DNA of 61,742 nt from positions 1 through 61,742 of the forward strand of contig JBKPCP010000047.1 of NCBI GenBank assembly GCA_046727475.1, in the 5' to 3' direction. Numbering within the stretch: the stretch's first letter is position 1; each line of letters begins with the position of its first letter. Positions 3,299 through 56,426 of the stretch are shown piece by piece. Origin of the DNA: Actinomycetota bacterium. Its GTDB lineage: Bacteria > Actinomycetota > Actinomycetes > Jiangellales > Jiangellaceae. The position numbers were made by a program, and so were the translations under genes. The notes beneath the pieces are model-generated. The model saw nothing but the letters and a program-made list of their open reading frames with translations, ran no database searches and was not told where the DNA came from.

Positions 3299-4300
3299 AT
3301 GCTCAACTTACGAAACCGCAGCTTCCTCAAGGAGATCGACTTCACGCCCGGCGAGCTGCGCCACCTGCTGCAGCTTGCCCAGGCGCTGAAGATCGCAAAG
3401 TATGCCGGCACCGAAAACCGGCGGCTGGAAGGCAAGGAGATCGCGCTGATCTTCGAGAAGACCTCTACCCGCACTCGGTCCGCCTTCGAGGTCGCCGCCT
3501 TCGACCAAGGCGCTCACGTGACCTACCTCGATCCGTCGGGGTCACAACTGGGCCACAAGGAGTCTGTTGCGGATACGGCACGGGTGTTGGGGCGGATGTA
3601 TGACGCCATCGAGTTTCGTGGCAACCTTCAGTCGGATGTCGAGGCGCTGGCAGAACACGCCGGTGTTCCCGTGTACAACGGGCTCACCAATGAGTGGCAC
3701 CCGACACAGATGCTGGCTGACTTCCTCACCATGCACGAGGCCAGCGGAAGGCCGTACGACGCCCTGACCTATGCCTTCGTCGGAGACTGTCGCTTCAACA
3801 TGGGAAGGTCGCTCTTGGTCATGGGCGCCCTGATGGGCGCAGACGTGCGGCTGGCCGGGCCGGAGGCGCTGCGGCCCCCCGAGGACGTCGTGACCATTGC
3901 CGAGGGAATCGCCGCCCGGACGGGCTCCCGAATCACGATCACTGACGACGTCAGCCAAGCCGTGGCAGGTGCGGACTTCATCCACACCGACGTGTGGGTG
4001 TCCATGGGTGAGTCCAAGGACGTCTGGCACGAGCGCATCCGACTCCTCGCGCCGTACCAGGTCAATAGGGAACTCCTCGAAAAGACCGGCAACCCGAAGG
4101 TGAAGTTCATGCACTGCCTGCCCGCCTTCCACGACCAAGACACAGTCGTCGGCAGGGAGATCATGGAGCACACCGGCATGCGTGAAGGCCTCGAAGTGAC
4201 AGGAAACGTCTTCGACTCGCCCGCCAGCATCGTCTTCGATCAGGCGGAGAACAGGCTGCACACGATCAAGGCGCTGCTTGTCGCCACGCTCGGAAGTTAG
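3299..4300 (+). CDS. arcB: Ornithine carbamoyltransferase (catabolic context)
   Basis: [17 protein letters not shown].., STRTR, HPTQ and HCLP motifs. Start moved to ATG 3299. Sits directly next to arcC and arcA. Confidence 0.9.
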
Positions 4301-47516: not shown

Positions 47517-47882
47517 TCAGCGGACCAGCCGGTCGAGCAGGCGCGCGAGCTCGGCCTGGGGTGAGTCGGTGAGGCCTGCGTGCACCGGGCCCGGCTGGAC
47601 GACAGTGCTGCGCGGCGCGGTCAGCCACCGGAACCGCTCGCCCCTGCTGCCGCCGCCGGCCGGCCCTTCGCCGGAGCATGCGGCCCGTATCGCGTCGACG
47701 GCGGCCCAGACGCCGTCCACGTCCACCTCGGGATCGAGCGCCCGCAGACGGGCAGCGTCGACAGCGGCCGCGGCGGCGAGGTAGTCGAGTGCCTGGCAGT
47801 AGACGATGACGCCTACGTTGACGGTCTCGCCCCGTTCGATCCGCGGGACCGCGCGCAGGATGGCGTACTCGAAGGGCTTCAC
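47517..47882 (-). CDS. DUF3037 domain protein
   Basis: FEYAILRAVPRIERGETVNVGVIVYC is the DUF3037 N-terminal pattern. Its GTG start overlaps the upstream TGA (GTGA). Confidence 0.75.
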   Translation of the reverse strand: MKPFEYAILRAVPRIERGETVNVGVIVYCQALDYLAAAAAVDAARLRALDPEVDVDGVWAAVDAIRAACSGEGPAGGGSRGERFRWLTAPRSTVVQPGPVHAGLTDSPQAELARLLDRLVR

Positions 47883-48634
47883 CGGCTCGCCTCCGGCAAC
47901 CAGGACCGCGAGGCGGCAGCTCGAGCGGCCAGGTAATCGACGTACGCCGCCCGCCCCTCGGCGGGCAGCCAGTCGTGCGGCACGAGCGCGACGACGTCGG
48001 TGAGCAGTGCGTCACTCACCAACGGCGAGAGCTCCGCGTCGGCGGATCCGAGCGCGCTCGCGTACGGCGCCAGCGCATGGTCGCCCAACGGGTACGGGCG
48101 CGACGCGAACTCGGCGATCCCGGGCCAGGTGTGCTGGAAGAGCAGCGCCGCTCCGTGGTCGATCGCCCACAGTTCACCGTGCCAGACCAGCAGGTTCGGG
48201 TTCCGCCAGCTGCGGTCGACGTTCACGGTCAACGCGTCGAGCCACAGGATGCGTGCCGCGGTGTCCCTTTCCGGACGCCAGCCGATGCCGTCATAGCCCA
48301 GCGAGCGGGGCAGGAAGTCGATACCCAGGTTCGTGCCCGGGCTCGCCAGCAGAAGGTCCTGCACCTCCGGGTCCGGTTCGCGGCGTCCGATGTCCGGGTC
48401 GAGGTCCACCACGACCTGCTCGGGTACCCGGATTCCCAGCCTCCGGGCCAGCTCACCGACGATCACCTCTGCCACCAGTGCCTTGAGCCCCTGGCCGGCG
48501 CCGCGGAACTTCACGACATACGTCCCGAGGTCGTCGGCCTCCACCAGACCTGGAAGCGAGCCGCCCTCGCGCAGCGGCTCGACGTACCGTGTCGCACGGA
48601 CCCGACGCAGCACATCGAGCACTACCTCGGTCAT
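47879..48634 (-). CDS. HipA-like family kinase
   Basis: VKFRGAGQG (P-loop-like), NVDRSWRNPNLLV (catalytic loop) and IDHGAAL (DxG). Confidence 0.7.
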   Translation of the reverse strand: MTEVVLDVLRRVRATRYVEPLREGGSLPGLVEADDLGTYVVKFRGAGQGLKALVAEVIVGELARRLGIRVPEQVVVDLDPDIGRREPDPEVQDLLLASPGTNLGIDFLPRSLGYDGIGWRPERDTAARILWLDALTVNVDRSWRNPNLLVWHGELWAIDHGAALLFQHTWPGIAEFASRPYPLGDHALAPYASALGSADAELSPLVSDALLTDVVALVPHDWLPAEGRAAYVDYLAARAAASRSWLPEASR

Positions 48635-50531: not shown

Positions 50532-51356
50532 GTGACCCCTCCCACCACCCATGCGCCCGGCCGTGCGCGCAGCCGCAAGGCCGACGCCGCATGCCTCGAG
50601 GCTGTGGACCTCGCACGCGCGGCCGCTGTGGCGATCGCAGGCGCCGACCAGGTGGGTGAGTACCGCGGTTACGACGTCGAGGACGAGCGGGTCGTCACCC
50701 ACTACTTCGACGCCAGAGCATTCGGCTACCGAGGCTGGCGGTGGTCCGTCACCGTCACCCGGGCGGCGCGGGCCAAGGTCGTGACCGTCGACGAGTGCGT
50801 GCTGCTCCCCGGGCCGGACGCCGTGCTGGCGCCGCCGTGGGTGCCCTGGGACGAGCGGGTGCAGCCCGGCGACCTCGGCCCGGGCGACCTGTTGCCGACC
50901 GCAGACGACGACCCCCGGCTGGTGCCGGGCTACACCGGGGCCGACGAGGCCATCGACCCGGAGGCTTCGCGAGCCGTCACCGACGAGCTCGGGCTCGGTC
51001 GCGCCAGAGTCCTCTCGGCCTGGGGACGCGACGACGCGGCCGAACGGTGGCGCGAAGGCATCGGCGGACCGGACACCGAGATCGCCCGGGCAGCCCCGTT
51101 CCCCTGTGAGACGTGCGGCTTCCTCGTGCCGCTCGCCGGTGCGCTCGGCCGGGTCTTCGGCGTGTGCACCAACGAGCGGACGCCCTTCGACGGCCTCGTC
51201 GTCGCCCACGATCACGGCTGCGGCGCGCATTCGGAGGTGCGGATCGGGCAGGTCGTGCCGACGCCGTCGGGCCCGGTCTTCGACACGCTGTCCCACGAGC
51301 TGGTACCGAATGAGCTCGTCGAAACAAACCTCGACGAGGAGCTCGGCCACTCGTAG
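50532..51356 (+). CDS. DUF3027 domain protein
   Basis: CETCGFLVPLAGALGRVFGVCTNE..HDHGCGAHSE is the DUF3027 Cys/His pattern. GTG at 50532. Confidence 0.75.
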   Translation: MTPPTTHAPGRARSRKADAACLEAVDLARAAAVAIAGADQVGEYRGYDVEDERVVTHYFDARAFGYRGWRWSVTVTRAARAKVVTVDECVLLPGPDAVLAPPWVPWDERVQPGDLGPGDLLPTADDDPRLVPGYTGADEAIDPEASRAVTDELGLGRARVLSAWGRDDAAERWREGIGGPDTEIARAAPFPCETCGFLVPLAGALGRVFGVCTNERTPFDGLVVAHDHGCGAHSEVRIGQVVPTPSGPVFDTLSHELVPNELVETNLDEELGHS

Positions 51357-54337
51357 TGGATGGGCGTCCGGTGGATCCGTTCGGCACGGCGTCGATCCGC
51401 GAACGCGTCCTTGCGGCGTGGACCGCCTCGCCGGCGCGTTTCCGTGAGGACGCGAACGCCGAGGAGGAACTGGTCCGCGGCGCGTACCGCGACCGGCTCG
51501 TCGTCGAGCTCGCTCAGAACGCGGCGGACGCCGCTGGACGCGCCGGCGTTCCCGGTCGGCTGCTCCTCCGCCTCGAGGGGTCGACGCTCGTGGCCGCCAA
51601 CGTCGGCGCACCACTCGACGCGGCCGGGGTGGAAGGTCTGTCGACGCTGCGCGCATCGGCGAAGCGCGACGATCCGGCCGCCACGGTCGGCCGGTTCGGT
51701 GTCGGATTCGCGGCGACGCTGGCGGTGACCGACGCACCAGTTGTCGTGTCCCGCTCGGGTGGCGTGCGTTGGTCACGACCCTCGACGCTGGAGGCGGTCG
51801 GGGGCATCCCCGCGCTGGCGGCCGAGGTGGCCCGGCGCGGTGACGCGGTTCCGGTGCTCCGGCTCCCGTTCCCGGCCGACGGGACGGTGCCCGAGCCGTA
51901 CGACACCGTCGTCTCGCTGACGCTGCGCGACCAACGGGCGGTCGCACTGGCAGCCGAACTGCTCGCCGGCATCGACGACGCGCTGCTGCTTGCCCTGCCC
52001 GCGCTGGCCGAGATCACCGTCGAGCTCGGCGGCGCACGGCGGACACTGACTGCCGACCGAGCGGGTCCGGAGGTCGTCGTCGACGACAACGGCCGGCGTG
52101 CCCGGTGGCACCTCGCCCACCGGACCGGCCCGATCGCGCCGGACCTGCTGGCCGACCGGCCCGTCGAAGAGCGCGCACGACCGCAGTGGGAGGTCACGGT
52201 CGCGGTTCCGGTCGACGACGACGGCGCCCCGGTAGCTCTACCGGCCTCCGTACCCAGGGTCGTCCACGCTCCGACCCCGACCGACGAGCCGACCGCCTTG
52301 CCGGCCCTGGTGATGGCGACATTCCCCATGGACTCTTCCCGGCGCCGAGTCGCCCCGGGACCGCTGGCCGACCTCGTGGTGGGGGAGGTCGCCGTCGCCT
52401 ATGCGACGCTGGCGGCGAAGTTGGCAGGCCCGGCTGTGCTGGGCCTCGTGCCGGGCCCTCTGGGTGCGGGGGAGCTCGACGCAGCGCTCCATCGGGCGGT
52501 CGTCGACGCCCTGGCCCGCACGCCCCTGGTCCCCGCGGCCGACGGTTCGGGACGCCTCCGTCCGGACCGGGTCGTGCTCGTGCCCGGCCTGGAGCGTGCG
52601 GCCGATCCGGCCGCGTTGGCCCTGGTTGTCGCCGGTTTGCCGGCAGCGGCCTGGTGGCGGCCGGAAGCGCTGCGGCGACTCGGCGCTCAGGAGATCCCGC
52701 TGGCGGAGGTCGTCGACCGGTTGGCCGAGCTGTCACTGCCACCGGCGGAGTGGCGTGCGCTCTACGGCGCCCTCGAGGGTTCGGACCGCGATGTGTTGGC
52801 GGGGCTTCCGGTGCCGCTCGCCGACGGCCGGGTCGTACGCGGTCCGCGCGGCGTTCTGGTGCCCACCGGCGAGGTCGGCCCACGGATGCTGGAACCGCTG
52901 GGTCTGCGGATAGCCCATCCGGACGCAGATCATCCCGTGCTGCACCGCCTGGGTGCCGTCGAAGCGACGCCGGCCGCGGTGCTGCATGATCCGGCCGTCC
53001 GGGGCGCCGTCGAGGCACTGGCCGCGGAGGATGTCGCCGGCGAAGCGGTGGCGGGTCTGGTCGACGCCGTCCTCGGTCTGGTGGCCGCATCGGGCGTGAC
53101 GGTCGAGGACGAGCCTTGGCTGGGACGCCTGCCACTGCCGGACGCGAGCGGACAGGTGGCTCTGGCTCAGGAACTGCTGTTGCCCGGCTCACCGACCCTG
53201 AATCTGCTCGATGCCGATCCGGCCGACTACACCATCGCGGCCGAGCCGGTCGATCGGTGGGGCGAATCGGTACTTCGCGCGGTCGGCGTGCGTGACGGGT
53301 TCGGCGTCGTCCGCGACGCCGACCTGGCGCTCGACGACGAGAGCCGGCACGACCTCGACGACGAGGATCGGTGGGCCGAGGCCGTGCTTGCCGGACTTCC
53401 CGGTCAGGACCTGCCGCCGTTGATCGTGGAGCTCATCGCGGTACGGGACCTGGACCTGGTGCGTGAGGACGCCTGGCCCGCCGCCCTCGGTCTGCTGGCC
53501 GGCGACCCGGCAACACGTCCCGCCCTGGTGGAACCGGCGTACGCCCTGCTGGCCGACGGCACCCGGCGCACGGTTGTGCCCTACACGGTCTGGTGGCTGC
53601 GCACGCACGCCCGGATAGGCGGGCTTGCGCTGGAGGAGCTGTGTCCCGCCGATGCGGACCCGCTCGTCCGGGCGCTGCTGCATCCCGCTGATCTCGGCCT
53701 CGACGACATCGTGACTGGGTCACTCGGGCTGCCGAAGACGCTGACCGATCTGGACACCGGCCTGCTGCTAGACCGCCTCGCGGATCCGGGGCGCACGTTG
53801 TCCGCGCGCGATCTTGCCGACGTGTACGCGGTGCTGGCTTCGACGGACACCGGCACGGTGCCGGCGCCGAGGCGGATTCGGGTGCCCGCCGGACTCGGAT
53901 CGCGAGTTGTCCCCGCCGCGGACGCGGTCGTCGCGGACGGTCCGCATTGGCTGCAGCTCGACCTGCCGGCCGTCGTGCCGGGAGGACGTGCGCTCGCGGA
54001 CCTGCTCGACGTCGACCTGGCCGCGGACGTCTACGACGGCGCACCGGGTCCGGGTGGCCTCGTCGCTCAGGTTCCGGAGGTGATGTCCGCGCTCGTGCCG
54101 GACGCTCCTGCGACCTACGTCGAGCACGACGACCTAGTGGTTGCCGACCGGGCCGTCGACTGGTGGGTCGACGAGGAGAACACTGTCCACGCGGCCACGC
54201 CCGACGGCCTCGCGAGAGGGTTGGCCTGGGCCACCCGCCGTTGGGAGCTCCGGTTCCTGCTCGCCGAGGCTCTCCGGGACCCGGCTGCCGTGCCGGCGCT
54301 GCTGTCCGAGCAGGCCTACGAGCCCCACCGGGGCTGA
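51356..54337 (+). CDS. Large ATP-binding protein with GHKL/sacsin-like N-terminal ATPase motif
   Basis: VVELAQNAADA (N-box ExxxNAxD) and GRFGVGF (G2 box). 993 aa. The GTG overlaps the DUF3027 TAG by 1 nt. Confidence 0.6.
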   Translation: MDGRPVDPFGTASIRERVLAAWTASPARFREDANAEEELVRGAYRDRLVVELAQNAADAAGRAGVPGRLLLRLEGSTLVAANVGAPLDAAGVEGLSTLRASAKRDDPAATVGRFGVGFAATLAVTDAPVVVSRSGGVRWSRPSTLEAVGGIPALAAEVARRGDAVPVLRLPFPADGTVPEPYDTVVSLTLRDQRAVALAAELLAGIDDALLLALPALAEITVELGGARRTLTADRAGPEVVVDDNGRRARWHLAHRTGPIAPDLLADRPVEERARPQWEVTVAVPVDDDGAPVALPASVPRVVHAPTPTDEPTALPALVMATFPMDSSRRRVAPGPLADLVVGEVAVAYATLAAKLAGPAVLGLVPGPLGAGELDAALHRAVVDALARTPLVPAADGSGRLRPDRVVLVPGLERAADPAALALVVAGLPAAAWWRPEALRRLGAQEIPLAEVVDRLAELSLPPAEWRALYGALEGSDRDVLAGLPVPLADGRVVRGPRGVLVPTGEVGPRMLEPLGLRIAHPDADHPVLHRLGAVEATPAAVLHDPAVRGAVEALAAEDVAGEAVAGLVDAVLGLVAASGVTVEDEPWLGRLPLPDASGQVALAQELLLPGSPTLNLLDADPADYTIAAEPVDRWGESVLRAVGVRDGFGVVRDADLALDDESRHDLDDEDRWAEAVLAGLPGQDLPPLIVELIAVRDLDLVREDAWPAALGLLAGDPATRPALVEPAYALLADGTRRTVVPYTVWWLRTHARIGGLALEELCPADADPLVRALLHPADLGLDDIVTGSLGLPKTLTDLDTGLLLDRLADPGRTLSARDLADVYAVLASTDTGTVPAPRRIRVPAGLGSRVVPAADAVVADGPHWLQLDLPAVVPGGRALADLLDVDLAADVYDGAPGPGGLVAQVPEVMSALVPDAPATYVEHDDLVVADRAVDWWVDEENTVHAATPDGLARGLAWATRRWELRFLLAEALRDPAAVPALLSEQAYEPHRG

Positions 54338-54387: not shown

Positions 54388-55242
54388 ATGCGATTCGTGA
54401 TCGAGCCGGACGTCCAGGCGTTCGAGCACCGAGGGCTTGCCTGGATGGAGCGGGATCCGCTGCTCAACACCCTTCCTGCGACGATCGCACGGTCCGTGAT
54501 GGCTGGCATGTACCCGGGTGACTTGGCACCGTCTGTGTGGATCACGATCGAGTCCGACGACCACCAGCCGATCGGTGCCGCCGTGCGTACTCCGCCACGG
54601 AACATGGTCGTGCCCGCCGTCCCGAACGAGCTCGCCCGCGCGCTCGCGGAGTTCATGTTCGAGAGATCGGTGGGAGAGGACCTCCCCGGCGTGAACGGGC
54701 CCGTCGATGCGGCGCGCGCCTTTGCCGACCGATGGGCCGAGCTGACCGGCTGCGACGTGCGCACCGAAACCAACATGCGGCTCTACCGCCTGGACAGGCT
54801 GGATCCGCCGGCGGATCCGGCCGGCGCGTGGCGGATTGCCACCCGGGACGACCGTGACCTGTGCTTCGGGTGGTTCGAGGCATTCGCGGCGGAGACCACC
54901 CGGAGTGCGCCGCCGCCGGAGCGGCGCGATGTCCTTGCCCGCGTCGACGGTCGAAGGCTCGGACTGTGGCATGTGCACGGTCGTCCGGTCTCTCTGGCCG
55001 GTTGGACGGTGCCGGCCTCGGGCGTGGTTCGGGTCGGGCCCGTCTACACACCGCCCGAGCAGCGCGGGCGAGGCTACGGCACGGCGGCGACGGCGGCCGC
55101 GACGGCAGGGATCCTGAGCGCCGGAGCCCAGGCGTGCCTGTTCACGGACCTGAGCAACCCGACCTCCAACTCGATCTATCAGAGGATCGGCTACCGGGCG
55201 GTCACCGACTGCGTCGAGTTGGCCTTCGAGCAACCCCACTAG
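54388..55242 (+). CDS. GNAT family N-acetyltransferase
   Basis: VYTPPEQRGRGYGTAATAA (acetyl-CoA Q/RxxGxG/A motif) and C-terminal IYQRIGY. Confidence 0.75.
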   Translation: MRFVIEPDVQAFEHRGLAWMERDPLLNTLPATIARSVMAGMYPGDLAPSVWITIESDDHQPIGAAVRTPPRNMVVPAVPNELARALAEFMFERSVGEDLPGVNGPVDAARAFADRWAELTGCDVRTETNMRLYRLDRLDPPADPAGAWRIATRDDRDLCFGWFEAFAAETTRSAPPPERRDVLARVDGRRLGLWHVHGRPVSLAGWTVPASGVVRVGPVYTPPEQRGRGYGTAATAAATAGILSAGAQACLFTDLSNPTSNSIYQRIGYRAVTDCVELAFEQPH

Positions 55243-55285
55243 TTGGTCACGCGCGTGGGTGCTCTCCCCGCGGGCGACGTCCGGA

Positions 55286-55361
55286 ACGACAGGAACAACG
55301 ACCCGGGGCTGCCACGTTTGTCTGGGTCTGCCGGGCCACAGCGGGCCGTTGTTCCTGTCGT
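55286..55361. terminator. 15-bp perfect inverted repeat (ACGACAGGAACAACG / CGTTGTTCCTGTCGT) with a structured 46-nt interior
   Basis: Read directly. Lies 17 nt downstream of the micro-ORF stop, between convergent genes. Confidence 0.6.
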
Positions 55362-55378
55362 ACGGTCCGCGTTCCCGG

Positions 55379-55444
55379 TCAGCAGCAGTCCGCGATCTCG
55401 CAACAGTCGTCGGTACAACAGCCGGCCAGGTCGAGCTCGTCCAT
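55379..55444 (-). CDS. Cysteine-rich micro-protein, 21 aa: MDELDLAGCCTDDCCEIADCC
   Basis: ATG preceded by AGGAGG with a 6-nt spacer. GC3-rich codons. TGA stop followed by a hairpin. Divergent from arsR. Not in the ORF track because it is under 60 aa. Confidence 0.55.
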   Translation of the reverse strand: MDELDLAGCCTDDCCEIADCC

Positions 55445-55466
55445 GGCGAACCTCCTCTTCTAAGAC

Positions 55467-55482
55467 ATCGACGAGTTTCGAT
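55467..55482. promoter_or_regulatory. Operator-like palindrome ATCGAC-N4-TTCGAT (copy 1)
   Basis: Read directly. Lies 22 nt upstream of the micro-ORF ATG. Confidence 0.45.
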
Positions 55483-55509
55483 GCCTGCGCACAGGAGCTT
55501 GCCCTTCGT

Positions 55510-55541
55510 ATCGACGGATGTCAATATCGACGCATGTCGAT
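55510..55541. promoter_or_regulatory. Two abutting operator-like palindromes ATCGAC-N4-GTCAAT and ATCGAC-N4-GTCGAT (copies 2 and 3)
   Basis: Read directly. They overlap TTGACA (minus strand, 55519..55524), CAATAT (plus strand, 55522..55527) and the arsR ATG. Confidence 0.5.
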
Positions 55542-55890
55542 GTTGCGCACATCCCTGCCTGTTCTGGAGCCGTTCTGCTGCACGCCGCTGACACGGGAGC
55601 CGCTGGCCGAGGTCGAGGCGGCTGCGCTGGCGGTGCGCTTCAAGGCTCTGGCCGACCCGGTCCGGCTGCGCCTGCTCTCCCTGGTGCTGGCGTGCGAGGA
55701 CGACGAGGCCTGCGTGTGCGACCTGACCGCCGCCTTCGACCTGTCCCAGCCGACGATCTCCCACCACCTCAAGGTGCTGCTCGACGCGGGACTGCTCAGC
55801 CGCGAGAAGCGCGGTGTGTGGGCCTACTACCGGGTGCAGCGTGAGGCGCTCGGAGCCTTGGCCGGAGTGATCGACGCCGTCGCCGCCTGA
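55534..55890 (+). CDS. ArsR/SmtB family metalloregulator (alpha3N thiolate-site type)
   Basis: ALADPVRLRLLSLV, CVCDL, LSQPTISHHLKVL and an N-terminal CC pair (EPFCCTPL). Confidence 0.9.
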   Translation: MSMLRTSLPVLEPFCCTPLTREPLAEVEAAALAVRFKALADPVRLRLLSLVLACEDDEACVCDLTAAFDLSQPTISHHLKVLLDAGLLSREKRGVWAYYRVQREALGALAGVIDAVAA

Positions 55891-55949
55891 CGATCGACCG
55901 CTGGCCACCCAGGGTGGTGGGGCCGGCGCAGACAGGGGATGCTGGCGAT

Positions 55950-56426
55950 ATGCGTGATCAGACCTGCCCCTTGTGTCGTGGCCGCGAAGTCGACCCGGAC
56001 ATGGGTCGCGAGCAGGTCTGGGAGGACGCCCACTGGCGGCTGACCACGAGCATCGGGCCCGGTGATCCCACACCGGGCTTCTCCTACCTCGAGCCCAAGC
56101 GCCACATCCCTTCGATCGCCGACCTCGACGGCGGCGAGGCCGTCACGTTCGGCCTGGCGATCGCCCGAAGCACGAAGGCCCTCAAGCAGGCGACCGGCAG
56201 CGAAGCCGTCTACGTCTACGTCTTCGGCGGGCACATCCCGCACCTGCACGTCCACCTGGCCCCGCACCGCGAAGGCGACGCCCTGAACTCGGCCATGTTG
56301 AAGGGCGAGATCGTCGAGGAGCCCCTGCCCACCGGCGCCGTCTCGCTGGTGAGCAAGGACTTCCCCGCCATCGACCAGGTCGAGCTGCGCTCGGTAGCCG
56401 ACCGGGTGCGTCGATTGCTCAGTTGA
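55950..56426 (+). CDS. HIT family protein
   Basis: Histidine triad HIPHLHVHLAP. N-terminal CPLC. Confidence 0.85.
   Translation: MRDQTCPLCRGREVDPDMGREQVWEDAHWRLTTSIGPGDPTPGFSYLEPKRHIPSIADLDGGEAVTFGLAIARSTKALKQATGSEAVYVYVFGGHIPHLHVHLAPHREGDALNSAMLKGEIVEEPLPTGAVSLVSKDFPAIDQVELRSVADRVRRLLS

What the first reader, a model, noticed from the sequence alone, without database searches (positions are those of the whole stretch)
55286..55890. Unannotated 21-codon, 6-cysteine micro-ORF divergent from a thiophilic ArsR/SmtB repressor, with a triple palindromic operator array
**The ORF.** The minus strand 55444->55379 reads ATG GAC GAG CTC GAC CTG GCC GGC TGT TGT ACC GAC GAC TGT TGC GAG ATC GCG GAC TGC TGC TGA. 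This encodes MDELDLAGCCTDDCCEIADCC, which is 29% Cys arranged as three CC pairs and otherwise acidic. It is invisible in the ORF track because it is under 60 aa.

**Signs of a real transcription unit.**
- AGGAGG sits 6 nt before the ATG.
- A 15-bp perfect inverted repeat (55286..55300 / 55347..55361) lies 17 nt after the stop.
- TTGACA (55524..55519, minus strand) with a weak CAAGCT -10 lies 17 nt downstream of it.

**The divergent neighbour.** It is an ArsR/SmtB regulator with the CVCDL alpha3 thiolate site plus an N-terminal CC pair, the sensor type for soft metals and metalloids.

**The intergenic region.** The 89-bp intergenic region, running into the first codons of arsR, holds three copies of ATCGAC-N4-GTCGAT (55467..55482, 55510..55525, 55526..55541). 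The last two abut each other, cover both putative promoters and overlap the arsR ATG. TTGCCC-17-CAATAT-6-ATG suggests a leaderless arsR mRNA.

**Interpretation.** The layout mirrors smtB-smtA (repressor and metallothionein), but the product is far smaller than known bacterial metallothioneins such as SmtA or MymT (about 53-56 aa). It could be a mini-metallothionein or metal/metalloid-buffering peptide. Less likely, it is a RiPP-like precursor. I know of no described family for it.
Basis: partly seen in the sequence, partly recalled or inferred. Interest (0 to 1): 0.75.

Follow-up and report, generated by a model that had tools for sequence, protein, structure and literature searches.

The report
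Tiny six-cysteine peptide gene beside ArsR
A never-annotated 21-codon gene for an acidic peptide with three cysteine pairs sits back-to-back with an arsenic-type ArsR repressor, and it belongs to a widespread, apparently undescribed family of 16-26-residue peptides that travel with arsenic-resistance genes and probably bind arsenite or similar soft metal(loid)s.

Summary
The 21-codon ORF MDELDLAGCCTDDCCEIADCC (55444->55379, minus strand) has an AGGAGG ribosome-binding site and a strong downstream hairpin. It is the only short ORF in the window with five or more cysteines.

It is a conserved gene. All eight distinct ArsR orthologues at 73% identity or more carry it in the same divergent position. 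They show in-frame indels, TGT/TGC swaps and invariant cysteines.

A pattern scan of one genome per species found at least 23 more such ORFs of 16-22 aa (CC-x3-CC-x3/4-CC-stop, strong SD). They come from Actinomycetota, plus one Chloroflexota MAG and one MAG labelled Burkholderiales. Of 23 family ORFs, 18 lie within 1 kb of an ArsR homologue, against 2 of 97 other hits (p = 5e-15). Two follow a MerR-type metal sensor. About 15 loci also carry arsC, ACR3, arsM, arsI/cadI-like or aquaporin genes.

The ArsR shares its N-terminal CC and CVC cysteines and its ATCGAY-N4-RTCGAT operators with homologues that control canonical ars operons.

None of ten peptides tested is in a 15-billion-protein collection. 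Pfam, NCBIfam and nine literature searches found nothing.

Best reading: an ArsR-repressed, arsenite-inducible thiolate peptide that buffers or chaperones the metalloid. Metal binding and expression remain untested. Only two of the three palindromes are conserved.

The parts
55379..55444 (-). Micro-ORF of 21 codons plus stop: MDELDLAGCCTDDCCEIADCC, with three vicinal Cys pairs.
   Evidence: Conserved in orthologous loci L003, L004, L005, L007, L101, L209 and L210. It is the only ORF of 12-35 aa with >=5 Cys in the window.
55451..55456 (-). Shine-Dalgarno AGGAGG, 6 nt upstream of the ATG.
   Evidence: A GGAGG-type SD is present in all orthologues and in nearly all family members.
55286..55361 (-). 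Long hairpin (20-nt arms, 36-nt loop) 17 nt after the stop. It is a probable factor-independent terminator without a U-tract, shared with the convergent GNAT gene.
   Evidence: dG -60.8 kcal/mol, z -4.45. In 15 of 22 family loci the 70 nt after the stop fold with z < -2.
55467..55482 (.). Operator-like palindrome 1, ATCGACGAGTTTCGAT (1 mismatch). It lies between the micro-ORF SD and its putative promoter.
   Evidence: An ATCGAY-N4-RTCGAT site next to the peptide SD is present in almost all peptide-ArsR loci.
55510..55525 (.). Operator-like palindrome 2, ATCGACGGATGTCAAT (1 mismatch). It spans the spacer of both divergent promoters and overlaps the arsR -10 and the micro-ORF -35.
   Evidence: It is conserved as ATYGAN-N4-GTCAAT(AT), including in canonical ars loci such as L212.
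55526..55541 (.). Palindrome 3, ATCGACGCATGTCGAT (perfect), overlapping the arsR start codon. It is lineage-specific, so its role as an operator is doubtful.
   Evidence: The left half is not conserved in L003, L005, L007 and L210, and the spacing is N3 in L101.
55499..55527 (+). Putative arsR promoter: TTGCCC, 17 nt, CAATAT, then 6 nt to the ATG. This implies a leaderless arsR mRNA.
   Evidence: Read directly. GTCAATAT followed 5-7 nt later by ATG, and CAGCTTG, are conserved in the orthologues. It is not called by the sigma-70 scan. The assignment is inferred.
55496..55524 (-). Putative micro-ORF promoter: TTGACA (55524->55519), 17 nt, CAAGCT (55501->55496). It interlocks with the arsR promoter.
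   Evidence: Read directly. Both hexamers sit in blocks conserved across the orthologues. The assignment is inferred.
55534..55890 (+). ArsR/SmtB-family repressor, 118 aa, with Cys15-Cys16, Cys54 and Cys60-x-Cys62.
   Evidence: HTH_5 57.9 bits; NF033788 92.8 bits against a cutoff of 55. CC and CVC are invariant across 30 peptide-linked homologues and about 85 of 86 other homologues.

Best explanation
**What it is.** The locus is a two-gene, self-contained metalloid-response cassette.

**How it most likely works.**
- The ArsR dimer binds the ATCGAY-N4-RTCGAT sites in the 89-bp intergenic region. There it represses two interlocked divergent promoters: its own leaderless transcript and the micro-ORF transcript.
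- When As(III), or a chemically similar soft metal(loid) such as Sb(III) or possibly Cd(II), binds the N-terminal Cys15-Cys16 together with the Cys60/Cys62 (and Cys54) thiolates, the repressor leaves the DNA.
- The monocistronic, SD-led micro-ORF is then translated into a 21-residue, strongly acidic, cytosolic peptide.
- Its six thiolates (CC-x3-CC-x4-CC) can form two three-sulfur sites. This is the kind of 'vicinal pair plus one nearby Cys' site used by ArsD, AfArsR and CgArsR.
- The peptide therefore sequesters the metalloid. It acts as a minimal 'arsenic metallothionein' and may hand the metalloid to efflux or methylation systems encoded elsewhere.

**Shown here.** The gene is real and conserved. 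It is linked to ArsR or MerR sensors and to ars genes. Its operator and sensor cysteines are shared with canonical ars regulators.

**Inferred.** Repression by this ArsR, the identity of the inducer, translation, metal binding and stoichiometry.
For: 1. **Conservation as a protein.** Eight distinct orthologous loci (ArsR 73-100% identical) all keep the divergent micro-ORF. They keep the SD, show in-frame length changes (21-26 aa) and TGT/TGC synonymous swaps, and end in -CC-stop. The spacer residues drift among D/E/T/S/G/A.
3. **Link to sensors.** 18 of 23 family ORFs lie within 1 kb of an ArsR homologue, against 2 of 97 other pattern hits (Fisher p = 5e-15). Those two are family members missed by the SD filter. 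Two more (Actinoplanes L016, Amycolatopsis pittospori L054) directly follow a MerR-family heavy-metal regulator.
4. **Link to arsenic.**
   - tblastn finds arsC, ACR3, arsM, arsI/cadI-like or MIP genes in about 15 of about 25 peptide loci.
   - In L018 and L063 the order is arsR <-> arsI/cadI-like -> peptide.
   - In L204 the order is peptide -> arsC.
   - The 80 nearest metagenomic ArsR homologues (55-68% identical) flank ArsI/CadI-like (25), ArsM (22), ArsC (7), ACR3 (5) and MIP (5) genes. NCBIfam confirms these families, as do annotated plasmid records.
5. **Same sensor site and operators.** The sensor cysteines (CC, CVC) and the operator/promoter layout are the same in peptide-linked and canonical ars ArsRs.
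6. **Stand-alone gene.** The peptide gene is usually followed directly by a GC-rich hairpin. It is therefore an end product, not a leader.
7. **Chemistry.** As(III) sites made of three Cys that include a vicinal pair are documented for CgArsR (Cys15/16/55) and AfArsR (95/96/102) in PMC11868830, and for ArsD (12/13/18; 112/113; 119/120) in PMC4562236. The ArsI/CadI-like and ArsM proteins next to the ArsR homologues carry similar acidic CC...CC tails.
Against: - There is no expression, translation or metal-binding data of any kind.
- The window holds no other ars gene (Pfam of neighbours). Arsenic specificity for this particular cassette therefore rests on homology of the regulator (55-68% identical to regulators of ars operons) and on the context of distant family members.
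- ArsR/SmtB sensors change metal specificity easily. The closest curated model (Rv2640c family, partner of the 'cadmium-induced' CadI) is missed (115 bits against a cutoff of 155), and its effector is, to my knowledge, unknown.
- The MerR-linked variants score closest to the Hg, Zn and Cd/Pb sensor models, which hints at broader metal use.
- Only 1 of 80 close metagenomic ArsR homologues carries the peptide, so it is an accessory element.
- A 21-residue unstructured peptide may be unstable in vivo.
- The promoters are weak matches, and the consensus scan does not call them.
Confidence: 0.55

Rival explanations
1. The architecture is as above, but the physiological ligand is a soft metal cation (Cd(II), Hg(II), Pb(II), Zn(II) or Cu(I)). 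The peptide would then be a minimal true metallothionein, not an arsenic-specific one.
For: - The alpha3N-type site (N-terminal Cys plus CVC) is, from knowledge of CadC-type sensors, also used for Cd, Pb and Zn.
- The best NCBIfam model is the Rv2640c family, whose divergent partner in M. tuberculosis is the cadmium-induced CadI.
- Two family members follow MerR-type regulators that score closest to the MerR, ZntR and CadR/PbrR models.
- The window has no ars genes.
Against: - The genes near the family members and near the ArsR homologues are overwhelmingly arsenic genes: arsC, ACR3, arsM, the aquaglyceroporin type, and ArsI/CadI.
- No metal-cation efflux ATPase or CDF gene was seen next to peptide loci, but this was not searched for systematically.
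- L016, one of the two MerR-linked cases, is itself inside an ars cluster.
Confidence: 0.2
2. The peptide is mainly a regulatory partner of ArsR. It would compete with ArsR for the metalloid, or deliver the metalloid to it. This would set the induction threshold or give negative feedback, without providing bulk detoxification.
For: - The pairing with the sensor is tight and conserved, usually under shared operators, often with no other ars gene in the same transcription unit.
- From the literature, ArsD was first seen as a vicinal-Cys regulator (PMC4562236).
Against: - No evidence of a protein-protein interface.
- The peptide also occurs after MerR-type regulators and after arsI or arsC. That fits a general effector better than an ArsR-specific partner.
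- This reading is not exclusive of the best explanation.
Confidence: 0.08
3. The ORF is a cis-acting translational sensor of cysteine or Cys-tRNA supply, like the polycysteine short ORFs of mycobacteria. The peptide itself would have no function.
For: - The ORF is cysteine-dense.
- Precedent: polycysteine leaderless sORFs attenuate downstream cysteine-related operons (10.1101/834739).
Against: - The ORF is SD-led and not leaderless.
- In the window it is followed by a terminator-like hairpin and a convergent gene, so there is nothing to attenuate. In L007 its stop codon overlaps the stop of the convergent gene.
- The cysteines come in spaced pairs, not one tract.
- The acidic spacers and the -CC end are conserved across phyla.
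- The linkage is to metal sensors, not to cys genes.
Confidence: 0.03
4. The peptide is a RiPP precursor, or a secreted thiol-rich metallophore that is modified by enzymes encoded elsewhere.
For: - It is a short, Cys-rich, genetically encoded peptide.
- Some close relatives have a sulfotransferase or methyltransferase gene beyond arsR.
Against: - No maturase, protease or exporter is conserved next to it. The flanks differ among orthologues (GNAT, Sacsin-like, sulfotransferase, methyltransferase, ABC) and among distant members.
- There is no leader/core organisation in 16-21 residues.
- There is no signal peptide.
Confidence: 0.04
5. It is not a functional gene. The conserved block would be DNA or RNA-level sequence, such as operator or terminator remnants, or the decayed 3' end of an arsI/cadI-like gene.
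For: - In canonical loci the position divergent from arsR is occupied by an ArsI/CadI-like gene whose product also ends in ...CC*.
- No gene caller has ever reported the ORF.
Against: - Conservation is at the amino-acid level: synonymous Cys codon swaps, in-frame indels only, and a retained start plus strong SD, in lineages from Jiangellaceae to Gaiellales, a Chloroflexota MAG and a MAG labelled Burkholderiales.
- It coexists with an intact, tail-bearing ArsI/CadI-like gene in L063.
- It was never called because 66 nt is, from my knowledge of Prodigal's 90-nt minimum, below common gene-caller length limits.
Confidence: 0.03

Closest known systems
SmtB-SmtA of Synechococcus (ArsR/SmtB repressor divergent from a metallothionein gene)
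   Same: - An ArsR/SmtB-family repressor is transcribed divergently from a small Cys-rich metal-sequestering product.
- Palindromic operators lie in the shared intergenic region.
   Different: - SmtA is about 56 aa (from memory), folds around a Zn4 cluster using His as well as Cys, and has its own Pfam family. The micro-peptide has no match to any Pfam or NCBIfam model.
- The micro-peptide is 21 aa and has only vicinal CC pairs.
- Its sensor belongs to the arsenic clade (CC plus CVC), not to the SmtB alpha5 zinc-site type.
MymT, the mycobacterial Cu(I) metallothionein
   Same: - A small actinobacterial Cys-rich cytosolic peptide that was missed by annotation when discovered.
- It is induced by a metal-responsive repressor (mentioned in PMC11672702).
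   Different: - MymT is about 53 aa (from memory), is Cu(I)-specific, and is controlled by CsoR/RicR-type regulators, not ArsR-type.
- No sequence similarity was detected.
ArsD arsenic metallochaperone, and the Cys-rich tails of ArsI/CadI-like and ArsM proteins
   Same: - Vicinal cysteine pairs within a few residues of further Cys, in flexible acidic segments, encoded in ars clusters.
- ArsD uses Cys12/13/18 and Cys112/113 and 119/120 (PMC4562236).
- ArsI/CadI-like tails end in CC* and ArsM N-termini read ...CCDDSCC....
   Different: - Those are parts of folded proteins of 120-350 aa. Here the motif is the whole gene product.
- The peptide coexists with a tail-bearing ArsI/CadI-like protein (L063), so it is not simply a split-off tail.
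Polycysteine leaderless short ORFs of mycobacteria (cysteine-responsive attenuators)
   Same: Unannotated, very short, Cys-rich ORFs in Actinomycetota (10.1101/834739).
   Different: - Those are leaderless, have consecutive Cys tracts, and sit upstream of the operons they regulate.
- This ORF is SD-led, has spaced CC pairs, is terminated immediately, and is tied to metal sensors.
Phytochelatins and fungal 25-aa Cu-metallothioneins
   Same: Very short thiolate-rich peptides that chelate As(III), Cd or Cu. Phytochelatins are the main As(III) chelators of plants (PMC9917255).
   Different: - Phytochelatins are made enzymatically from glutathione and are not gene-encoded.
- The fungal metallothioneins (from memory: Neurospora, 25-26 aa, CxC motifs) are eukaryotic and Cu-specific.
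- Actinomycetota use mycothiol and lack phytochelatin synthase as a rule (from memory).

Membership tests
ArsR/SmtB metalloregulators (the neighbouring gene) | Winged-helix HTH_5 domain that scores above the curated cut-offs. | tested here: met
   Pfam PF01022 57.9 bits (cutoff 22). NCBIfam NF033788 92.8 bits (cutoff 55)..
Rv2640c-family ArsR-like regulators (NCBIfam NF041413, equivalog) | A score at or above the 155-bit curated cut-off. | tested here: not met
   115.5 bits. It is the best-scoring model, but the protein is not a member by NCBI's criterion.
Type 3 (CgArsR-like) As(III)-sensing ArsR | An N-terminal vicinal Cys pair (Cys15-Cys16) plus a third Cys (Cys55) from the other subunit (PMC11868830). 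| tested here: inconclusive
   Cys15-Cys16 are present and are invariant in 115 of 116 homologues. Cys54 is present in the window lineage only. No alignment with the CgArsR sequence itself was possible here, and As(III) binding was not tested.
Type 1 (R773-like) As(III)-sensing ArsR | Cys32-x-Cys34-x2-Cys37 (CVCDLC) in the DNA-binding domain (PMC11868830). | tested here: not met
   The sequence reads ACVCDLTAAF. The CVC is present, but the third Cys is replaced by Ala.
Bacterial metallothioneins (SmtA/BmtA, MymT) | Sequence membership in the described families. | tested here: not met
   No Pfam or NCBIfam hit for the peptide even at E <= 1.
Metallothioneins in the functional sense | Low molecular weight, high Cys content, no aromatic residues, and metal-thiolate cluster formation. 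| not testable with these tools
   The composition criteria are met: 29% Cys, no aromatic residues, 21 aa. Metal-thiolate binding needs biochemistry.
Polycysteine leaderless sORF attenuators (mycobacteria) | A leaderless start, a consecutive Cys tract, and a position as first cistron upstream of a regulated operon (10.1101/834739). | tested here: not met
   There is an SD with a 5' UTR. The Cys come in spaced pairs. A hairpin and a convergent gene lie downstream.
RiPP precursors (for example SCIFF/ranthipeptides) | A conserved adjacent maturase (radical-SAM or other) and a leader-core organisation. | tested here: not met
   Flanking genes differ among the eight orthologous loci and among distant members, and no maturase recurs.
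The new 'CC-x3-CC-x3/4-CC-stop' micro-peptide family defined here | A 16-26-aa ORF with a strong SD, three vicinal Cys pairs (or equivalent), acidic or small spacers and a C-terminal -CC. It lies next to an ArsR- or MerR-type sensor, and a hairpin usually follows. | tested here: met
   The window ORF has all of these features. At least 30 loci share them.

The most novel reading that the evidence does not exclude
The micro-ORF is the founding example of an undescribed ars-gene class. It would be a genetically encoded 16-26-residue 'arsenothionein', which would make it the smallest known bacterial metal(loid)-binding gene product. It would bind two As(III) through three vicinal cysteine pairs. 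It is spread across Actinomycetota, with single hits in a Chloroflexota MAG and a MAG labelled Burkholderiales, under ArsR or MerR control. In mycothiol-using bacteria that lack ArsD/ArsA and phytochelatins, it would serve as the cytosolic arsenite buffer or chaperone.
Probability: 0.45. Interest if true: 0.8.

Novelty: new variant of a known kind. Interest (0 to 1): 0.7.

Why it matters
- **A missing component of arsenic resistance.** If the peptide binds arsenite, arsenic-resistance clusters of many soil Actinomycetota contain a component that no annotation pipeline reports. The gene is 51-81 nt long. None of ten tested sequences is among 15 billion predicted proteins.
- **A new kind of bacterial effector.** It would add a sequestration or chaperone step to an actinobacterial arsenic pathway so far described as reduction, efflux and methylation. 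It would be a bacterial, gene-encoded counterpart to phytochelatins.
- **Practical uses.** It is a very short, chemically synthesisable tag for arsenic capture or biosensing.
- **Annotation.** It shows that comparative genomics anchored on metal sensors can recover functional micro-proteins. It also supplies a motif and genomic context from which an annotation model could be built.

Tried and rejected
- **tblastn of two peptides against plasmids.** No match. The query is short and the low-complexity filter is on, so this says little.
- **Exact look-up of ten family peptides in the 15-billion-protein collection.** None present.
- **Pfam and NCBIfam scans of the peptide.** Nothing.
- **Rfam scan of 55000-56000.** Nothing.
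- **Consensus promoter and terminator scan.** Nothing called. The promoter and terminator assignments therefore rest on conservation and folding only.
- **ArsR-anchored scan of metagenome contigs.** It returned only 55-68% homologues, and 79 of 80 lack the peptide. This was useful as a negative set and showed that the clade is an arsenic clade. It was not useful for dN/dS.
- **Four annotated actinobacterial plasmid ars loci.** Amnibacterium, Paenarthrobacter, Streptomyces and Rhodococcus have no micro-ORF.
- **Supplementary ORF lists of the M. tuberculosis Ribo-seq study.** Searched for family-like motifs, none found.
- **Split-tail hypothesis.** I considered whether the peptide is just the detached C-terminal tail of ArsI/CadI. 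I rejected this because L063 has both an intact tail and the peptide.
- **Cysteine attenuator, RiPP and pseudogene readings.** Rejected for the reasons given under the rival explanations.
- **Literature.** Nine full-text searches found no description of such a peptide. An in-silico survey of actinobacterial metallothioneins (Schmidt et al. 2010, cited in PMC4531530) could not be read.
Full report
**1. The observation**

- **The ORF.** The minus strand 55444->55379 encodes MDELDLAGCCTDDCCEIADCC followed by TGA. AGGAGG lies 6 nt before the ATG.
- **The hairpin.** It begins 17 nt after the stop. As RNA it folds at -60.8 kcal/mol, z = -4.45 against shuffles. It has no U-tract, so the simple terminator scan does not report it.
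- **Downstream gene.** The next gene on the other strand is a convergent FR47-like GNAT (54400-55242). Nothing lies downstream of the micro-ORF on its own strand.
- **Chance.** The ORF is the only one of 12-35 aa in any frame of the window with five or more cysteines. In 100 Markov shuffles, 0.21 were expected for >=5 Cys and 0.0 for >=6 Cys. Its GC3 is 18/21, like real genes of this 69% G+C sequence.
- **The regulator.** The divergent gene (ATG 55534, to 55890) is a 118-aa ArsR/SmtB regulator. It scores 57.9 bits on HTH_5 and 92.8 bits on NF033788 (cutoff 55). The best specific model, the Rv2640c family, is missed at 115 bits against a cutoff of 155. It has Cys15-Cys16, Cys54 and Cys60-Val-Cys62.
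- **The palindromes.** One of the three is perfect and two have one mismatch each. They are the only three matches in the window, against 0.28 expected.

**2. Is the ORF a gene?**

I fetched loci that encode ArsR homologues, without using the peptide in the search.

| Locus | ArsR identity to window | Peptide |
|---|---|---|
| window, L001, L002 | 100% | MDELDLAGCCTDDCCEIADCC |
| L101 (Jiangellaceae MAG) | 98% | MDELDLASCCTEDCCEVADCC |
| L003 | 89% | VDELDLAGCCSDDCCDVADCC |
| L004 (Jiangellaceae MAG) | 81% | MDDLNLAGGCCDDDCCDVAGCC |
| L005, L006 | 81% | MTELTLHDCCDCTSDCCDETCC |
| L209 | 79% | MTDLTLHDCCDCTSECCDETCC |
| L007, L008 | 74% | MTDLTDCDCYCTGDCTSDCCTDVGCC |
| L210 | 73% | MNDCDCMCDCTDDCCADTSCC |

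- All eight distinct homologues at 73% identity or more carry a divergent micro-ORF in the same place.
- Length differences are all in frame. Every copy keeps a GGAGG-type SD, and Cys codons switch between TGT and TGC. The spacers drift among D, E, T, S, G, A, V and I, and all copies end in -CC-stop.
- This is conservation of a peptide, not of DNA.
- The genes beyond the pair differ between loci: GNAT present or absent, a Sacsin-like 990-aa protein, sulfotransferase, methyltransferase, ABC transporter, HIT-like. The conserved unit is just arsR plus the micro-ORF.

**3. How widespread is it?**

- **The scan.** I scanned one genome per species for the reverse-complement pattern TCAGCAGCA-N9-12-RCARCARTC-N6-12-RCARCA.
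- **The hits.** Most were noise, for example a poly-Cys C-terminus in Prochlorococcus. At least 23 were ORFs of 16-22 aa preceded by AAAGGAGG-type sites, of the form M..CC-x3-CC-x3/4-CC-stop. Examples are MNDPCCPPDCCPPGCC, MKKDDCCGSDCCGDDCC, MGTDCCDSDCCPNGCC, MPRACCDPDCCKTGDCC and MVHALPSCCDGGDCCGDDCC.
- **The hosts.** They include Actinomycetes and Actinomycetota MAGs, Gaiellaceae and Gaiella, Solirubrobacterales, Thermoleophilia, Nocardioidaceae, Amnibacterium, Actinoplanes, the isolate Amycolatopsis pittospori PIP199, a Chloroflexota MAG and a MAG labelled Burkholderiales. The last two labels rest on binning.
- **Link to ArsR.** 18 of 23 family ORFs have an ArsR homologue within 1 kb, nearly always divergent. 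Only 2 of the 97 other hits do (Fisher p = 5e-15). Those two are family members that my SD filter missed.
- **The five exceptions.**
  - L016 and L054 directly follow a MerR-family heavy-metal regulator. It scores closest to the MerR, ZntR and CadR/PbrR models, below their cut-offs.
  - L099 sits at the edge of its 8-kb block, next to arsC.
  - L017 and L021 (Longimicrobium) are a different, 12-Cys type.
- **Stand-alone gene.** In 15 of 22 loci the 70 nt after the stop fold with z < -2 (sequences). The gene is normally monocistronic.
- **Never annotated.** None of ten family peptides of 20 aa or more exists in the 15-billion-protein collection.

**4. Which metal(loid)?**

- **Neighbours of the nearest homologues.** The 80 nearest metagenomic ArsR homologues (55-68% identity) almost all lack the peptide (79 of 80). 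Their neighbours identify the clade: ArsI/CadI-like (25), arsenite methyltransferase (22), LMW-phosphatase-type ArsC (7), ACR3 (5) and MIP channel (5).
- **Confirmation of those families.** NCBIfam scores are 192 against a cutoff of 116 for ArsI/CadI, 295 against 263 for the methyltransferase and 433 against 283 for ACR3. Precomputed Pfam for L211 and L212 agrees, as do annotated actinobacterial plasmids.
- **ars genes near the peptide.** They also lie in about 15 of about 25 peptide-bearing genome loci:
  - arsR <-> arsI/cadI-like -> peptide in L018 and L063
  - arsR-arsM divergent from the peptide in L024, L072 and L084
  - MIP-arsC-merR-like-peptide in L016
  - ACR3 and arsC in L125
  - peptide -> arsC in L204
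- **Same sensor cysteines.** The N-terminal CC and the CVC are invariant in 30 of 30 peptide-linked ArsRs and about 85 of 86 others. Cys54 is special to the window lineage (9 of 30 against 0 of 86, where His is usual).
- **Known As(III) sites.** According to PMC11868830, known As(III) sites in ArsRs are three-Cys sites. CgArsR uses Cys15, Cys16 and Cys55. R773 uses Cys32/34/37. AfArsR uses Cys95/96/102. The window protein has the CgArsR-like pair at the same residue numbers and two of the three R773 positions.
- **Same operators.** An ATCGAY-N4-RTCGAT site abuts the SD of the divergent gene, and an ATYGAN-N4-GTCAAT(AT) site overlaps the arsR -10, which lies 5-7 nt before the start codon. This layout recurs in peptide loci and in canonical loci such as L212.
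- **The third palindrome.** It is not conserved. In L101, whose ArsR is 98% identical, it has lost one spacer base.
- **Not one clade.** Peptide-linked ArsRs are scattered over a neighbour-joining tree and do not form one clade. The tree is built on a short protein and is only indicative.

**5. Mechanism**

- **Regulation (inferred).** The ArsR binds the two conserved operators. These cover two interlocked divergent promoters, in which the -35 of each overlaps the -10 of the other. The metalloid releases the repressor. The short SD-led transcript is then made and ends at the hairpin.
- **The product.** It is a strongly acidic 21-mer with six thiols.
- **Chemical precedent.** Vicinal pairs with a third Cys a few residues away are the recurring As(III) site. 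ArsD uses Cys12/13/18 and the pairs 112/113 and 119/120 (PMC4562236). ArsI uses a Cys pair for MAs(III) (PMC6514093).
- **Similar tails nearby.** The ArsI/CadI-like proteins next to the ArsR homologues end in ...CC-x12-20-..CC*. ArsM N-termini read ...GGCCDDSCCSPG.... These resemble the peptide core CC-TDD-CC.
- **The model.** The peptide looks like a free-standing version of these metalloid-capturing tails. It could hold two As(III) in S3 coordination, acting as a buffer or as a donor to efflux or methylation systems.
- **Not a detached tail.** In L063 an intact tail-bearing ArsI/CadI-like gene and the peptide gene coexist.

**6. Rivals**

- **A cation metallothionein (Cd, Hg, Zn, Pb or Cu).** It remains possible. 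The best model for the regulator is that of the partner of cadmium-induced CadI. Two members use MerR-type sensors. The window has no ars genes.
- **A role tuning ArsR itself.** It is compatible with the data and not exclusive of the best explanation.
- **The cysteine-attenuator model of mycobacterial polycysteine sORFs (10.1101/834739).** It does not fit. This ORF is SD-led, has spaced pairs, and has nothing downstream.
- **A RiPP precursor.** It is unlikely, because no maturase is conserved nearby.
- **A non-coding remnant.** The amino-acid-level conservation excludes it.

**7. Known or new?**

- Pfam, NCBIfam, Rfam, the protein collection and nine full-text literature searches gave no description.
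- The principle is the metallothionein paradigm (SmtB-SmtA, MymT): a thiophilic sensor controlling a Cys-rich sequestering peptide.
- The family, its size, its vicinal-pair architecture and its tie to arsenic clusters appear new. I therefore rate it a new variant of a known kind.
- The main weakness is the complete lack of expression and binding data. In addition, arsenic specificity for this stand-alone cassette is inferred from relatives.

**8. Source**

The 98%-identical ArsR-plus-peptide locus L101 and the 81% locus L004 are from Jiangellaceae MAGs. The window probably comes from a member of that family, recovered from a metagenome.

Noticed in passing
L017:1-156 and L021 (Longimicrobium MAGs; oriented coordinates): A different Cys-rich micro-ORF: 28 aa with 12 Cys (MNVKCDCPDCDCTACCESCDCCREKCCC), preceded by an SD. 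No ArsR homologue lies within 1 kb. It may be another unannotated metallothionein-like family in Gemmatimonadota.
   Followed up: no
about 30 Prochlorococcus loci among L010-L120 (e.g. L010:361-404): The DNA pattern repeatedly hit a reading frame that ends ...DCCCCCCCC*, in many Prochlorococcus single-cell genomes and isolates. The context is unrelated to ArsR. I did not determine what ORF this belongs to.
   Followed up: no
L130-L207, genes divergent from ArsR homologues (e.g. L164:911-1372): ArsI/CadI-family proteins next to ArsR homologues almost always carry an acidic C-terminal tail with one CC pair and a terminal -CC*. ArsM neighbours carry N-terminal CC-x2-6-CC, and sometimes C-terminal CC-x6-CC-x6-CC. 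These tails resemble the micro-peptide.
   Followed up: partly
window 55693-55695 (Cys54 of ArsR): The window's ArsR lineage has an extra cysteine at residue 54 (LACE), where 77 of 86 non-peptide homologues have His. It could be the counterpart of the third ligand (Cys55) of CgArsR. It was seen only in peptide-linked ArsRs (9 of 30).
   Followed up: partly
L016 (Actinoplanes MAG) and L054 (Amycolatopsis pittospori PIP199), oriented coordinates: Here the peptide gene directly follows, with an overlapping SD, a MerR-family heavy-metal regulator that carries CPC and C-terminal Cys motifs. The same peptide family has therefore been recruited by two unrelated sensor families. L016 also holds a two-domain ArsR and an ArsR-ArsC fusion.
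   Followed up: partly
window 51356-54337 (+): A 993-aa protein with only a weak Sacsin-domain hit (25.9 bits, below the cutoff). It is the conserved upstream neighbour of the arsR/micro-ORF pair in L004, L005, L007 and L209. Its function is unknown.
   Followed up: no
window 54400-55242 (+): An FR47-like GNAT acetyltransferase convergent with the micro-ORF. It is present only in the closest relatives (L001-L003). GNAT genes also recur beside ArsR homologues on actinobacterial plasmids (L213-L215), which is reminiscent of ArsN/PhoN1-type acetyltransferases in ars operons (PMC11637737). I did not test whether this one is related.
   Followed up: no
window 47520-48634 (-): A DUF3037 protein followed by a HipA-like kinase (PF20613), which is a possible toxin-antitoxin-like or defence pair.
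   Followed up: no
L090 (Actinophytocola MAG), oriented 3621-3875: A long reading frame that ends in an extremely Cys-rich tail, ...CGDCDCCPCDGCGKGDCCDCDCCGCDCC*. It has no short SD-led start and was not classed with the family.
   Followed up: no
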